Below are positions 51,684 through 56,578 of a DNA stretch of 64,000 bases, in pieces (within the stretch, counting starts at the first letter, position 1; each line of letters begins with the position of its first letter). This DNA comes from Escherichia coli (GTDB taxonomy: Bacteria; Pseudomonadota; Gammaproteobacteria; Enterobacterales; Enterobacteriaceae): the NCBI RefSeq assembly GCF_003334335.1, contig NZ_QOWQ01000004.1; one strand, 5' to 3'. The notes below the pieces were generated by a model. That model ran no database searches, was not told the DNA's origin, and saw only the letters and a program-made list of their open reading frames with translations. The position numbers were made by a program, and so were the translations under genes.

Positions 51684-54347
51684 ATGTCAGAACGTTTCCC
51701 AAATGACGTGGATCCGATCGAAACTCGCGACTGGCTCCAGGCGATCGAATCGGTCATCCGTGAAGAAGGTGTTGAGCGTGCTCAGTATCTGATCGACCAA
51801 CTGCTTGCTGAAGCCCGCAAAGGCGGTGTAAACGTAGCCGCAGGCACAGGTATCAGCAACTACATCAACACCATCCCCGTTGAAGAACAACCGGAGTATC
51901 CGGGTAATCTGGAACTGGAACGCCGTATTCGTTCAGCTATCCGCTGGAACGCCATCATGACGGTGCTGCGTGCGTCGAAAAAAGACCTCGAACTGGGCGG
52001 CCATATGGCGTCCTTCCAGTCTTCCGCAACCATTTATGATGTGTGCTTTAACCACTTCTTCCGTGCACGCAACGAGCAGGATGGCGGCGACCTGGTTTAC
52101 TTCCAGGGCCACATCTCCCCGGGCGTGTACGCTCGTGCTTTCCTGGAAGGTCGTCTGACTCAGGAGCAGCTGGATAACTTCCGTCAGGAAGTTCACGGCA
52201 ATGGCCTCTCTTCCTATCCGCACCCGAAACTGATGCCGGAATTCTGGCAGTTCCCGACCGTATCTATGGGTCTGGGTCCGATTGGTGCTATTTACCAGGC
52301 TAAATTCCTGAAATATCTGGAACACCGTGGCCTGAAAGATACCTCTAAACAAACCGTTTACGCGTTCCTCGGTGACGGTGAAATGGACGAACCGGAATCC
52401 AAAGGTGCGATCACCATCGCTACCCGTGAAAAACTGGATAACCTGGTCTTCGTTATCAACTGTAACCTGCAGCGTCTTGACGGCCCGGTCACCGGTAACG
52501 GCAAGATCATCAACGAACTGGAAGGCATCTTCGAAGGTGCTGGCTGGAACGTGATCAAAGTGATGTGGGGTAGCCGTTGGGATGAACTGCTGCGTAAGGA
52601 TACCAGCGGTAAACTGATCCAGCTGATGAACGAAACCGTTGACGGCGACTACCAGACCTTCAAATCGAAAGATGGTGCGTACGTTCGTGAACACTTCTTC
52701 GGTAAATATCCTGAAACCGCAGCACTGGTTGCAGACTGGACTGACGAGCAGATCTGGGCACTGAACCGTGGTGGTCACGATCCGAAGAAAATCTACGCTG
52801 CATTCAAGAAAGCGCAGGAAACCAAAGGCAAAGCGACAGTAATCCTTGCTCATACCATTAAAGGTTACGGCATGGGCGACGCGGCTGAAGGTAAAAACAT
52901 CGCGCACCAGGTTAAGAAAATGAACATGGACGGTGTGCGTCATATCCGCGACCGTTTCAATGTGCCGGTGTCTGATGCAGATATCGAAAAACTGCCGTAC
53001 ATCACCTTCCCGGAAGGTTCTGAAGAGCATACCTATCTGCACGCTCAGCGTCAGAAACTGCACGGTTATCTGCCAAGCCGTCAGCCGAACTTCACCGAGA
53101 AGCTTGAGCTGCCGAGCCTGCAAGACTTCGGCGCGCTGTTGGAAGAGCAGAGCAAAGAGATCTCTACCACTATCGCTTTCGTTCGTGCTCTGAACGTGAT
53201 GCTGAAGAACAAGTCGATCAAAGATCGTCTGGTACCGATCATCGCCGACGAAGCGCGTACTTTCGGTATGGAAGGTCTGTTCCGTCAGATTGGTATTTAC
53301 AGCCCGAACGGTCAGCAGTACACCCCGCAGGACCGCGAGCAGGTTGCTTACTATAAAGAAGACGAGAAAGGTCAGATTCTGCAGGAAGGGATCAACGAGC
53401 TGGGCGCAGGTTGTTCCTGGCTGGCAGCGGCGACCTCTTACAGCACCAACAATCTGCCGATGATCCCGTTCTACATCTATTACTCGATGTTCGGCTTCCA
53501 GCGTATTGGCGATCTGTGCTGGGCGGCTGGCGACCAGCAAGCGCGTGGCTTCCTGATCGGCGGTACTTCCGGTCGTACCACCCTGAACGGCGAAGGTCTG
53601 CAGCACGAAGATGGTCACAGCCACATTCAGTCGCTGACTATCCCGAACTGTATCTCTTACGACCCGGCTTACGCTTACGAAGTTGCTGTCATCATGCATG
53701 ACGGTCTGGAGCGTATGTACGGTGAAAAACAAGAGAACGTTTACTACTACATCACTACGCTGAACGAAAACTACCACATGCCGGCAATGCCGGAAGGTGC
53801 TGAGGAAGGTATCCGTAAAGGTATCTACAAACTCGAAACTATTGAAGGTAGCAAAGGTAAAGTTCAGCTGCTCGGCTCCGGTTCTATCCTGCGTCACGTC
53901 CGTGAAGCAGCTGAGATCCTGGCGAAAGATTACGGCGTAGGTTCTGACGTTTATAGCGTGACCTCCTTCACCGAGCTGGCGCGTGATGGTCAGGATTGTG
54001 AACGCTGGAACATGCTGCACCCGCTGGAAACTCCGCGCGTTCCGTATATCGCTCAGGTGATGAACGACGCTCCGGCAGTGGCATCTACCGACTATATGAA
54101 ACTGTTCGCTGAGCAGGTCCGTACTTACGTACCGGCTGACGACTACCGCGTACTGGGTACTGATGGCTTCGGTCGTTCCGACAGCCGTGAGAACCTGCGT
54201 CACCACTTCGAAGTTGATGCTTCTTATGTCGTGGTTGCGGCGCTGGGCGAACTGGCTAAACGTGGCGAAATCGATAAGAAAGTGGTTGCTGACGCAATCG
54301 CCAAATTCAACATCGATGCAGATAAAGTTAACCCGCGTCTGGCGTAA
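51684..54347 (+). CDS. aceE: pyruvate dehydrogenase E1 component
   Basis: 887-aa ORF recognised as AceE. Confidence 0.97.
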
Positions 54348-54361
54348 GAGGTAAAAGAATA

Positions 54362-55310
54362 ATGGCTATCGAAATCAAAGTACCGGACATCGGGGCTGAT
54401 GAAGTTGAAATCACCGAGATCCTGGTCAAAGTGGGCGACAAAGTTGAAGCCGAACAGTCGCTGATCACCGTAGAAGGCGACAAAGCCTCTATGGAAGTTC
54501 CGTCTCCGCAGGCGGGTATCGTTAAAGAGATCAAAGTCTCTGTTGGCGATAAAACCCAGACCGGCGCACTGATTATGATTTTCGATTCCGCCGACGGTGC
54601 AGCAGACGCTGCACCTGCTCAGGCAGAAGAGAAGAAAGAAGCAGCTCCGGCAGCAGCACCAGCGGCTGCGGCGGCAAAAGACGTTAACGTTCCGGATATC
54701 GGCAGCGACGAAGTTGAAGTGACCGAAATCCTGGTGAAAGTTGGCGATAAAGTTGAAGCTGAACAGTCGCTGATCACCGTAGAAGGCGACAAGGCTTCTA
54801 TGGAAGTTCCGGCTCCGTTTGCTGGCACCGTGAAAGAGATCAAAGTGAACGTGGGTGATAAAGTGTCTACCGGCTCGCTGATTATGGTCTTCGAAGTCGC
54901 GGGTGAAGCAGGCGCGGCAGCTCCGGCCGCTAAACAGGAAGCAGCTCCGGCAGCGGCCCCTGCACCAGCGGCTGGCGTGAAAGAAGTTAACGTTCCGGAT
55001 ATCGGCGGTGACGAAGTTGAAGTGACTGAAGTGATGGTGAAAGTGGGCGACAAAGTTGCCGCTGAACAGTCACTGATCACCGTAGAAGGCGACAAAGCTT
55101 CTATGGAAGTTCCGGCGCCGTTTGCAGGCGTCGTGAAGGAACTGAAAGTCAACGTTGGCGATAAAGTGAAAACTGGCTCGCTGATTATGATCTTCGAAGT
55201 TGAAGGCGCAGCGCCTGCGGCAGCTCCTGCGAAACAGGAAGCGGCAGCGCCGGCACCGGCAGCAAAAGCTGAAGCCCCGGCAGCAGCACCAGCTGCGAAA
55301 GCGGAAGGCA
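54362..55310 (+). repeat. threefold tandem coding repeat (lipoyl domains) inside aceF
   Basis: Three copies of about 300 bp each, near-identical at protein level (e.g. [18 protein letters not shown]). Confidence 0.8.
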
Positions 55311-56254
55311 AATCTGAATTTGCTGAAAACGACGCTTATGTTCACGCGACTCCGCTGATCCGCCGTCTGGCACGCGAGTTTGGTGTTAACCTTGCGAAAG
55401 TGAAGGGCACTGGCCGTAAAGGTCGTATCCTGCGCGAAGACGTTCAGGCTTACGTGAAAGAAGCTATCAAACGTGCAGAAGCAGCTCCGGCAGCGACTGG
55501 CGGTGGTATCCCTGGCATGCTGCCGTGGCCGAAGGTGGACTTCAGCAAGTTTGGTGAAATCGAAGAAGTGGAACTGGGCCGCATCCAGAAAATCTCTGGT
55601 GCGAACCTGAGCCGTAACTGGGTAATGATCCCGCATGTTACTCACTTCGACAAAACCGATATCACCGAGTTGGAAGCGTTCCGTAAACAGCAGAACGAAG
55701 AAGCGGCGAAACGTAAGCTGGATGTGAAGATCACCCCGGTTGTCTTCATCATGAAAGCCGTTGCTGCAGCTCTTGAGCAGATGCCTCGCTTCAATAGTTC
55801 GCTGTCGGAAGACGGTCAGCGTCTGACCCTGAAGAAATACATCAACATCGGTGTGGCGGTGGATACCCCGAACGGTCTGGTTGTTCCGGTATTCAAAGAC
55901 GTCAACAAGAAAGGCATCATCGAGCTGTCTCGCGAGCTGATGACTATTTCTAAGAAAGCGCGTGACGGTAAGCTGACTGCGGGCGAAATGCAGGGCGGTT
56001 GCTTCACCATCTCCAGCATCGGCGGCCTGGGTACTACCCACTTCGCGCCGATTGTGAACGCGCCGGAAGTGGCTATCCTCGGCGTTTCCAAGTCCGCGAT
56101 GGAGCCGGTGTGGAATGGTAAAGAGTTCGTGCCGCGTCTGATGCTGCCGATTTCTCTCTCCTTCGACCACCGCGTGATCGACGGTGCTGATGGTGCCCGT
56201 TTCATTACCATCATTAACAACACGCTGTCTGACATTCGCCGTCTGGTGATGTAA
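54362..56254 (+). CDS. aceF: pyruvate dehydrogenase E2 dihydrolipoyllysine acetyltransferase
   Basis: 630-aa ORF; three lipoyl domains ([11 protein letters not shown] x3) with Ala/Pro-rich linkers, E3-binding and catalytic domains. Confidence 0.97.
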
Positions 56255-56261
56255 GTAAAAG

Positions 56262-56287
56262 AGCCGGCCCAACGGCCGGCTTTTTTC
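56262..56287 (+). terminator. intrinsic terminator after aceF
   Basis: GCCGGCCCAACGGCCGGC hairpin followed by TTTTTT. Confidence 0.6.
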
Positions 56288-56578
56288 TGGTAATCTCATG
56301 AATGTATTGAGGTTATTAGCGAATAGACAAATCGGTTGCCGTTTGTTGTTTAAAAATTGTTAACAATTTTGTAAAATACCGACGGATAGAACGACCCGGT
56401 GGTGGTTAGGGTATTACTTCACATACCCTATGGATTTCTGGGTGCAGCAAGGTAGCAAGCGCCAGAATCCCCAGGAGCTTACATAAGTAAGTGACTGGGG
56501 TGAGGGCGTGAAGCTAACGCCGCTGCGGCCTGAAAGACGACGGGTATGACCGCCGGAGATAAATATATAGAGGTCATG

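What the first reader, a model, noticed from the sequence alone, without database searches (positions are those of the whole stretch)
54362..55310. aceF carries three tandem lipoyl-domain repeats joined by Ala/Pro linkers
Three copies of about 300 bp each encode near-identical lipoyl domains, each with the [10 protein letters not shown] lipoyl-lysine motif. Tandem coding repeats of this length are substrates for recombinational gain or loss of domains. The minus-strand 230-aa Ala/Gly/Ser-rich ORF at 54619..55311 is a shadow of these repeats.
Basis: partly seen in the sequence, partly recalled or inferred. Interest (0 to 1): 0.3.

Follow-up and report, generated by a model that had tools for sequence, protein, structure and literature searches.

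The report
Three lipoyl-domain repeats in aceF
This is the textbook E. coli aceF gene, whose three tandem ~300-bp repeats encode the three lipoyl "swinging-arm" domains of pyruvate dehydrogenase; the repeats are real and do occasionally recombine in nature to give two- or four-domain alleles, but the feature itself is long known.

Summary
The window is E. coli K-12-like DNA. aceF (54362..56254) encodes a 630-aa E2p, identical to PDB 7b9k. [quoted passage not shown] The unit spacing is 309 and 303 bp. "Near-identical" overstates it: the domains are 76–86% identical in protein and 77–86% in DNA. The linkers are 66–70% Ala+Pro.

The minus-strand 230-aa ORF (54619..55311) is a pure shadow. Its frame shares wobble positions with aceF. 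Stops there need a sense Tyr, His or Gln, and every synonymous recoding keeps it open.

The recombination idea is supported by natural alleles:
- Six of 5,426 complete E. coli genomes carry intact two-domain aceF genes with a lip1/2 or lip2/3 hybrid domain.
- Four-domain alleles with the reciprocal hybrids occur in draft E. coli assemblies and in two Salmonella chromosomes.
- Each E. coli hybrid examined at DNA level (drafts and complete genomes) shows one clean switch in the conserved stretch around the lipoyl-lysine motif.

All 83 free-living species representatives with a complete gene 5' end keep three domains; endosymbionts have fewer.

Verdict: already known biology and low interest. The within-species copy-number polymorphism is a modest add-on.

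The parts
54362..56254 (+). aceF CDS, the dihydrolipoyllysine-residue acetyltransferase (E2p) of the pyruvate dehydrogenase complex, 630 aa
   Evidence: ORF. NCBIfam NF008814 at 1101.5 bits against a cutoff of 722. Identical over 1-630 to PDB 7b9k. Matches E. coli genomes at 100% where the gene is annotated aceF.
54383..55200 (+). Tandem DNA repeat array: period 303, 2.7 copies, 80% matches
   Evidence: Tandem Repeats Finder score 1008. The repeat finder family D1 with spacing 309 and 303.
54365..54586 (+). Lipoyl domain 1 (aa 2-75); lipoyl-lysine K41 is the codon at 54482-54484
   Evidence: Pfam Biotin_lipoyl at aa 4-73, E=1.3e-21. Motif position. Domain bounds.
54587..54673 (+). Linker 1, 29 aa, 66% Ala+Pro
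54674..54895 (+). Lipoyl domain 2 (aa 105-178); lipoyl-lysine K144 is the codon at 54791-54793
   Evidence: Pfam Biotin_lipoyl at aa 107-176, E=5.4e-23.
54896..54976 (+). Linker 2, 27 aa, 70% Ala+Pro
54977..55198 (+). Lipoyl domain 3 (aa 206-279); lipoyl-lysine K245 is the codon at 55094-55096
   Evidence: Pfam Biotin_lipoyl at aa 207-277, E=4e-22. Matches the NMR structure 1qjo over aa 206-284..
55199..55312 (+). Linker 3, 38 aa, 68% Ala+Pro. It varies in length between strains: a 4-aa AAPA deletion in strain W444.
55340..55447 (+). Peripheral-subunit (E3/E1) binding domain, aa 327-362
   Evidence: Pfam E3_binding, E=7.5e-16.
55556..56248 (+). Acetyltransferase catalytic core domain, aa 399-629, containing DHRVIDGA
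   Evidence: Pfam 2-oxoacid_dh, E=3.4e-80. PDB 4n72 matches aa 382-630.
54736..54823 (+). Stretch of lipoyl domain 2 (domain nt 62-149, around the lipoyl-lysine motif) where every crossover mapped in the six draft four-domain alleles falls. The equivalent stretches are 54427-54514 in lip1 and 55039-55126 in lip3.
   Evidence: Switch intervals 62-68, 86-116, 95-101, 95-116, 116-149 and 95-149 in the hybrid domains. Per-position labels place the two-domain switches in the same central region. The longest exact shared words between the K-12 repeats (32, 26 and 23 nt) lie here.
54619..55311 (-). Shadow ORF: 230 aa, TTG start, rich in Ala, Ser, Thr, Gly and Pro. Not a gene.
   Evidence: ORF. No NCBIfam match. 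Frame analysis and 2000 synonymous shuffles. Not annotated in the RefSeq records examined.

Best explanation
The region is the 5' half of E. coli aceF.

What the protein does. It encodes three tandem lipoyl domains of about 74 aa each. Each domain carries a lipoyl-lysine in a DKA motif (K41, K144, K245). The domains are separated by flexible Ala/Pro-rich linkers of 27-38 aa. A peripheral-subunit-binding domain follows, and then the acetyltransferase core, which assembles into a 24-mer. The lipoylated domains act as swinging arms that carry acetyl groups and reducing equivalents between the E1, E2 and E3 active sites. This mechanism is established knowledge and is not shown here.

What the DNA does. 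The three units form a diverged in-frame tandem repeat of 309 and 303 bp. Homologous or unequal exchange in the best-conserved stretch, around the lipoyl-lysine motif, occasionally deletes or duplicates one unit. The products are intact two-domain or four-domain alleles that carry one hybrid domain. Nearly all genomes keep three domains, which points to selection for that number.

The minus-strand ORF. The 230-aa ORF is a non-coding by-product. In its frame a stop can arise only opposite a sense Tyr, His or Gln codon, and the lipoyl-linker region almost lacks these.
For: Identity of the gene:
- Domain architecture from Pfam.
- NCBIfam equivalog NF008814 above its cutoff.
- Identical over the full length to PDB 7b9k; lip3 matches 1qjo.
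- Matches E. coli genomes at 100% where the gene is annotated aceF, downstream of aceE, with lpd next downstream.
- Repeat structure.

Recombination:
- Four-domain proteins contain lip2N/lip1C or lip3N/lip2C hybrid domains.
- At DNA level each hybrid shows one clean parental switch. The switch intervals do not overlap between carriers, and the aceE backgrounds differ, so the events are independent.
- A calibrated hybrid-unit search (true hybrids at least 531 bits, normal genes at most 446 bits) found 6 of 5,426 complete genomes with the reciprocal deletion hybrids.
- All six are intact genes of 527 or 529 aa, on at least five different aceE backgrounds.
- Four-domain alleles also sit on Salmonella chromosome-size records CP075029.1 and CP006575.1.
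- An Arsenophonus endosymbiont has a single lip1N/lip2C hybrid domain.
- Within-genome lip2-lip3 DNA identity exceeds both orthologous identities in 40% of ordered species pairs, against 1% for lip1-lip2. This suggests gene conversion between lip2 and lip3.

Selection for three domains:
- 83 of 83 species representatives with a complete gene 5' end and three detectable motifs come from free-living Enterobacterales; no free-living member had another number.
- Fewer domains lower growth rate and yield (Dave et al. 1995, as cited in PMC10579247).

Shadow ORF:
- Frame offset, codon mapping and 2000 of 2000 synonymous shuffles staying open.
Against: - The repeats are only 77-86% identical, and the longest exact shared words are 32, 26 and 23 nt. 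That is near the minimum usually quoted for RecA-dependent exchange (my recollection, not checked here), so exchange should be rare. It is: about 0.1% of complete genomes.
- The four-domain E. coli alleles come only from draft or metagenome assemblies. None was found among the 5,426 complete genomes.
- No read-level validation was possible.
- Whether the exchanges depend on RecA or arise by replication slippage or template switching is not determined.
- The concerted-evolution comparison does not use a phylogeny.
Confidence: 0.96

Rival explanations
1. The two-domain and four-domain alleles are assembly artefacts (collapse or expansion of a tandem repeat), not real alleles. In that case the repeats would be evolutionarily inert in E. 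coli.
For: - The four-domain E. coli alleles were seen only in draft or metagenome contigs.
- None was found among the 5,426 complete genomes.
- Several odd-length entries look like possible misassemblies (P0023, P0032, P0035).
- The contig holding L086 breaks inside the repeat array.
Against: - The two-domain alleles are in six finished chromosomes from different projects and at least five aceE backgrounds. All are intact and in frame, with one clean switch each.
- Four-domain alleles occur on two Salmonella chromosome-size records.
- The K-12 repeats share no exact word longer than 32 nt, which gives assemblers little reason to mis-join them.
- The same protein (P0003) is encoded by DNAs with different crossover intervals.
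- Endosymbiont lineages show the same hybrid structure as a fixed state.
Confidence: 0.1
2. The minus-strand ORF 54619..55311 is a real overlapping gene encoding an Ala/Ser/Thr-rich protein.
For: It is 230 codons long and has a possible TTG start.
Against: - Its openness is forced by the AceF amino-acid sequence: 2000 of 2000 synonymous recodings keep at least 239 codons open.
- Its composition is a one-to-one image of AceF residues: A to A, P to G, G to P, E and D to S, V to T.
- It has no NCBIfam family.
- It is never annotated in the RefSeq records examined.
- It is shortened or lengthened by one unit in the two- and four-domain alleles.
- Even longer shadow ORFs lie opposite aceE (757 aa) and opposite the aceF core (409 aa).
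Confidence: 0.01
3. The apparent DNA repeat is only a compositional effect of Ala-rich low-complexity coding sequence, not a true duplication.
For: The linkers are GC-rich, GCN-dominated short repeats (family D2).
Against: - The repeat covers the 222-nt domain cores, not just the linkers.
- First and second codon positions are 84-95% identical.
- There are three independent Pfam Biotin_lipoyl matches.
- Tandem Repeats Finder scores the array at 1008.
Confidence: 0.005

Closest known systems
E. coli K-12 AceF (E2p, dihydrolipoyllysine-residue acetyltransferase; PDB 7b9k; lip3 NMR structure 1qjo; core 4n72)
   Same: The 630-aa sequence is identical. The domain order is the same: lip1-lip2-lip3-PSBD-core. 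The context is the same, aceE upstream and lpd downstream. The literature states three lipoyl domains per chain and 72 per 24-mer (PMC8421416).
   Different: Nothing; it is this protein.
Engineered aceF alleles with fewer lipoyl domains (Guest et al. 1985 J Mol Biol 185:743; Dave et al. 1995 Microbiology 141:1839, both as cited in PMC5013485 and PMC10579247). Constructs with up to nine domains (Machado et al. 1992) are my recollection only.
   Same: The natural two-domain alleles found here have the same architecture as those constructs: whole-unit, in-frame changes in domain number.
   Different: The alleles here arose spontaneously in wild isolates. They carry hybrid domains created by crossover inside the domain, not by restriction-site engineering.
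PDH E2 chains with one or two lipoyl domains in other bacteria and in reduced endosymbiont genomes (Serratia symbiotica, PMC5013485)
   Same: Same protein family. The domain number varies by whole units. The scan here found Ferrimonas with 2, Candidatus Arsenophonus triatominarum with 2, an Arsenophonus endosymbiont of Bemisia with 1, and S. symbiotica with 1.
   Different: In those lineages the reduced number is the fixed species state. In E. coli it is a rare polymorphism of about 0.1%.

Membership tests
PDH-complex E2p, AceF (NCBIfam NF008814 / TIGR01348) | Whole-protein score above the curated equivalog cutoff | tested here: met
   NF008814 scores 1101.5 bits against a cutoff of 722. TIGR01348 scores 1041.6 against 552.1.
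PDH-complex E2p, AceF (NCBIfam NF008814 / TIGR01348) | N-terminal lipoyl domain(s) with a lipoyl-lysine in a DKA motif | tested here: met
   Three Biotin_lipoyl domains. [10 protein letters not shown] occurs three times.
PDH-complex E2p, AceF (NCBIfam NF008814 / TIGR01348) | Peripheral-subunit-binding domain followed by a 2-oxoacid_dh catalytic domain with the DHRxxDG active-site motif | tested here: met
   E3_binding at aa 327-362 and 2-oxoacid_dh at aa 399-629. DHRVIDGA is visible in the translation.
PDH-complex E2p, AceF (NCBIfam NF008814 / TIGR01348) | Operon context pdhR-aceE-aceF-lpd | tested here: met
   ORFs in the window. RefSeq annotation of a homologous locus, strain 463; identical-sequence records are annotated aceE-aceF.
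PDH-complex E2p, AceF (NCBIfam NF008814 / TIGR01348) | Actual lipoylation and acetyl transfer | not testable with these tools
   Taken from the literature on the identical protein (PMC8421416).
Tandem coding repeat that undergoes unequal exchange | Head-to-tail in-frame units whose length is a multiple of three | tested here: met
   Spacing of 309 and 303 nt.
Tandem coding repeat that undergoes unequal exchange | Natural alleles that differ by whole units and carry a hybrid unit with a single parental switch, including reciprocal deletion and duplication products | tested here: met
   Duplications with 2N/1C and 3N/2C hybrids. Deletions with 1N/2C and 2N/3C hybrids.
Tandem coding repeat that undergoes unequal exchange | Dependence on homologous recombination (RecA) rather than slippage | not testable with these tools
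   All that can be shown is that the crossovers fall in the longest shared tracts.
Shadow (non-coding antisense) ORF | Openness explained by the sense-strand protein sequence alone | tested here: met
   2000 of 2000 synonymous shuffles keep at least 239 codons open. The ORF is bounded by A86-Q87 and A325-Y326.
Shadow (non-coding antisense) ORF | No independent homology or annotation | tested here: met
   No NCBIfam hit. Only aceF is annotated there in the eight RefSeq records examined.
Shadow (non-coding antisense) ORF | No expression of a product | not testable with these tools
   This needs ribosome profiling or proteomics.

The most novel reading that the evidence does not exclude
Lipoyl-domain number in AceF is a recurrent, naturally segregating polymorphism in Enterobacteriaceae. 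It is produced by exchange at the lipoyl-lysine motif. Two-domain alleles occur in about 0.1% of finished E. coli genomes. Four-domain alleles occur in E. coli drafts and in finished Salmonella chromosomes, which exceeds the 'one to three' range stated in reviews. The papers I could search did not describe such a within-species polymorphism or natural four-domain E2p chains. If these alleles are real and not simply deleterious transients, they would be a natural dosage series for the swinging-arm mechanism.
Probability: 0.5. Interest if true: 0.3.

Novelty: already known. Interest (0 to 1): 0.12.

Why it matters
The feature itself is a classic of enzymology and gives no new biology. The add-on has modest value. 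It shows with natural alleles that these diverged repeats still recombine. It shows that three domains are held by selection: nearly all of 5,426 E. coli genomes and all 83 free-living species representatives with a complete gene have three. It shows that annotation pipelines can mislabel the intact two-domain allele as a pseudogene. It also gives a clean worked example of why long antisense ORFs appear opposite Ala/Pro/Glu/Val-rich coding sequence.

Tried and rejected
(1) Coverage threshold. I queried with the repeat region alone and expected copy-number variants to fall below 80% coverage. This failed because the tool joins pieces that overlap in the subject. Strain 463 still showed 83% coverage.

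(2) Short junction probes. I built probes of less than 55 nt with no native 28-mer for every in-register hybrid. The full set was too large (86 kb). The reduced set gave false hits when concatenated, because native words re-form across probe boundaries and because strain polymorphism mimics hybrids (for example in L001). I abandoned this.

(3) Same-strand concatenation. Joining six 312-nt hybrid units on one strand produced long low-identity alignments spanning several units. Alternating the strand orientation fixed this.

(4) Finding two-domain proteins in the protein search. This was not possible, because they score below the thousands of 630-aa entries and only the best 120 are listed.

(5) No structure prediction was run, because an identical solved structure exists.

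(6) About 36 of the 43 records with less than 95% identity remain unexamined. They may be divergent lineages or other structural variants.

(7) The hybrid search would miss crossovers near the ends of the domains or inside the linkers.

Full report
**What is there**

The window matches E. coli K-12-type genomes at 100% over 54300-56300, where the records annotate aceE and aceF. The ORFs around the finding are a pdhR-like regulator, aceE (51684..54347), aceF (54362..56254, 630 aa), lpd and yacH.

AceF scores 1101.5 bits against the NCBIfam equivalog NF008814, whose cutoff is 722. It is identical over residues 1-630 to PDB chain 7b9k. Its third lipoyl domain matches the NMR structure 1qjo, and its core matches 4n72.

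Pfam finds three Biotin_lipoyl domains at aa 4-73, 107-176 and 207-277. It also finds an E3_binding domain at 327-362 and a 2-oxoacid_dh catalytic domain at 399-629.

**The observation**

Tandem Repeats Finder reports an array at 54383..55200 with period 303, 2.7 copies, 80% matches and score 1008. The repeat finder gives a 300-nt family with spacing of 309 and 303 nt.

[10 protein letters not shown] occurs exactly three times, which puts the lipoyl-lysines at K41, K144 and K245. The three linkers are 29, 27 and 38 aa long and 66-70% Ala+Pro.

The domains are less alike than "near-identical" suggests:
- Protein identity is 76-86%.
- DNA identity is 77-86%.
- Third codon positions are only 57-73% identical.
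- The longest exact words shared between units are 32, 26 and 23 nt.

So this is an old triplication kept similar by selection on the protein. A structural paper quotes 73% identity across all three domains (PMC8421416).

**The shadow ORF**

The minus-strand ORF 54619..55311 (230 aa, TTG start) exists. Its codons are offset so that their wobble position pairs with the aceF wobble position. In that frame an antisense stop can arise in only two ways:
- opposite a sense Tyr codon that follows a codon ending in T or C;
- opposite a sense His or Gln codon that follows a codon ending in T.

The ORF is bounded exactly by A86-Q87 (GCT CAG) and A325-Y326 (GCT TAT). Between these points AceF has no Tyr or His. 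Its four Gln codons all follow Glu or Lys codons, which cannot end in T.

All 2000 synonymous recodings of aceF kept at least 239 codons open. The composition of the ORF is a one-to-one image of AceF: Ala gives Ala, Pro gives Gly, Gly gives Pro, Glu and Asp give Ser, and Val gives Thr.

The ORF has no NCBIfam match, and none of the eight RefSeq records examined annotates it.

**Do the repeats recombine?**

A protein search with AceF returned, above the normal 630-aa entries, about forty longer proteins of 723-738 aa. Their sources name them E. coli, Salmonella or Citrobacter. Dissecting them showed four lipoyl domains, one of which is a hybrid:
- P0001 (733 aa) has lip1, a lip2N/lip1C hybrid, lip2 and lip3.
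- The fifteen 731-aa proteins of the P0003 type have lip1, lip2, a lip3N/lip2C hybrid and lip3.

The encoding contigs place these genes in the normal pdhR-aceE-aceF-lpd context. At DNA level each hybrid shows one clean switch from one parent to the other, with no back-switches. The switch intervals, in domain nucleotides, are 95-101, 116-149, 95-116 and 95-149 for the 3N/2C type and 86-116 and 62-68 for the 2N/1C type. Some of these intervals do not overlap, and the aceE backgrounds differ by 4-25 SNPs. There were therefore at least two independent events of each type.

All the crossovers lie in the stretch around the lipoyl-lysine motif, which is where the longest shared words are.

**Finished genomes**

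I built six 312-nt hybrid-unit queries. Locally, true hybrids scored at least 531 bits and normal genes at most 446 bits. I searched them against 5,426 complete E. coli genomes with an E-value cutoff between the two classes.

Six genomes matched:
- Four carry the 2N/3C deletion hybrid: strains C2, C4, Rb-50 and VTB97379v.
- Two carry the 1N/2C hybrid: strains 01_3327 and 03_3013.
- None carries a duplication hybrid.

The annotated or re-translated genes are intact, at 529 and 527 aa, each with two domains. The four 2N/3C carriers differ from one another by 24-32 SNPs in aceE, so they represent separate lineages. The two 1N/2C carriers have identical aceE sequences. PGAP labels the intact 1N/2C genes as pseudogenes "missing N-terminus".

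These deletions are the reciprocal products of the duplications seen in the drafts. Four-domain alleles also sit on two Salmonella chromosome-size records, CP075029.1 and CP006575.1.

There are out-of-register events as well:
- Strain 463 has an in-frame 64-aa deletion between the VGDKV motif in the second half of lip2 and the one in the first half of lip3.
- P0038 has a 38-aa internal duplication between SLITV and SLIMV.

**Across species**

A once-per-gene DNA pattern from the subunit-binding domain hit 112 species-representative genomes. Eighty-three had a complete gene 5' end and three detectable lipoyl motifs, and all 83 are free-living Enterobacterales; no free-living member showed any other number. 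The exceptions were Ferrimonas with 2, Candidatus Arsenophonus triatominarum with 2, an Arsenophonus endosymbiont of Bemisia with 1 (itself a lip1N/lip2C hybrid), and Serratia symbiotica with 1. The last agrees with PMC5013485.

Domain 1 keeps its positional identity: in 82 of 83 species it best matches E. coli lip1. Domain 3 matches E. coli lip2 about as often as lip3, 34 against 37.

Within a genome, lip2-lip3 DNA identity exceeds both orthologous identities in 40% of ordered species pairs, against 1% for lip1-lip2. This suggests gene conversion between units 2 and 3. No phylogeny was used, so it is only suggestive.

**How it works**

The swinging-arm function of the lipoyl domains, the flexible linkers and the 24-mer core are established for this exact protein (PMC8421416, PMC6270654) and are not tested here. 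One domain suffices for activity (Guest 1985, cited in PMC5013485). Fewer domains lower growth rate and yield (Dave 1995, cited in PMC10579247). That fits the near-universal three-domain state seen here. The repeat exchange is shown by the alleles; its enzymology (RecA or slippage) is inferred.

**Novelty and verdict**

The finding as written is textbook. Reviews give "one to three" lipoyl domains per chain. I found no paper in the searchable library describing within-species two- or four-domain polymorphism. That library misses most subscription journals, so this is weak evidence of novelty.

The caveats are the lack of read-level validation and the fact that four-domain E. coli alleles come only from drafts. 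Interest is low.

Noticed in passing
L011:3543-5126 and L012:3543-5126 (NZ_CP074961.1, NZ_CP074958.1): RefSeq/PGAP annotates the intact two-domain aceF (ATG start, no internal stop, 527 aa) as a pseudogene, 'incomplete; missing N-terminus'. This looks like an annotation artefact of the unit deletion.
   Followed up: yes
L001:3001-4701 (E. coli strain 463, NZ_CP183105.1); corresponds to window ~54851-55042: An in-frame 64-aa deletion joins the VGDKV motif in the C-terminal half of lip2 to the VGDKV motif in the N-terminal half of lip3. The result is an out-of-register fusion with two lipoyl-lysine motifs and no linker. Whether it folds or functions is unknown.
   Followed up: partly
window 51933..54206 (-) and 55070..56299 (-): Further very long antisense ORFs lie opposite aceE (757 aa) and opposite the aceF catalytic half (409 aa). 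They are presumably shadows of the same kind. Not analysed.
   Followed up: no
window 56255..56578 (aceF-lpd intergenic); compare L003 with L004: The aceF-lpd spacer is polymorphic by about 117 nt between E. coli strains. lpd starts 207 nt after aceF in L003 and L007, and 324 nt after it in L004, L005, L008 and the window. Possibly a REP-type insertion; not examined.
   Followed up: no
window 58074..59927 (-), yacH / DUF3300: The C-terminal half of YacH holds tandem repeats of about 30 aa (ARERIQSASPEQRQAVREKMQTNP...) and a His/Asp-rich stretch. The product length varies between strains, with 572, 585 and 617 aa among the loci fetched.
   Followed up: no
P0032 (707 aa) and P0035 (680 aa): AceF variants with a 77-aa or 50-aa tandem duplication covering the peripheral-subunit-binding domain. 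P0032 is on a single ENA metagenome contig; P0035 is named E. coli by nr but no encoding contig is on record. They may be real or may be misassemblies.
   Followed up: partly
L095 (Arsenophonus endosymbiont of Bemisia tabaci) compared with L068 (Candidatus Arsenophonus triatominarum): The Bemisia endosymbiont AceF has a single lipoyl domain. Its N-terminal half matches lip1 and its C-terminal half matches lip2 of the two-domain relative. The same central-crossover deletion appears to have been fixed during genome reduction. Both use EGEKASMEVP rather than [10 protein letters not shown].
   Followed up: partly
window 55199..55312 (linker 3); L002 and P0014: A 4-aa AAPA (12-nt) length polymorphism in linker 3 is seen in strain W444 and again in the four-domain protein P0014. 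P0118 has a 1-aa Ala deletion in linker 1. Linker lengths drift by short-repeat slippage.
   Followed up: partly
L086 (Kluyvera ascorbata ATCC 33433, 7,118-nt contig): The contig ends inside the lipoyl-repeat array. This shows that the repeats can break short-read assemblies, which bears on how far draft copy numbers can be trusted.
   Followed up: no
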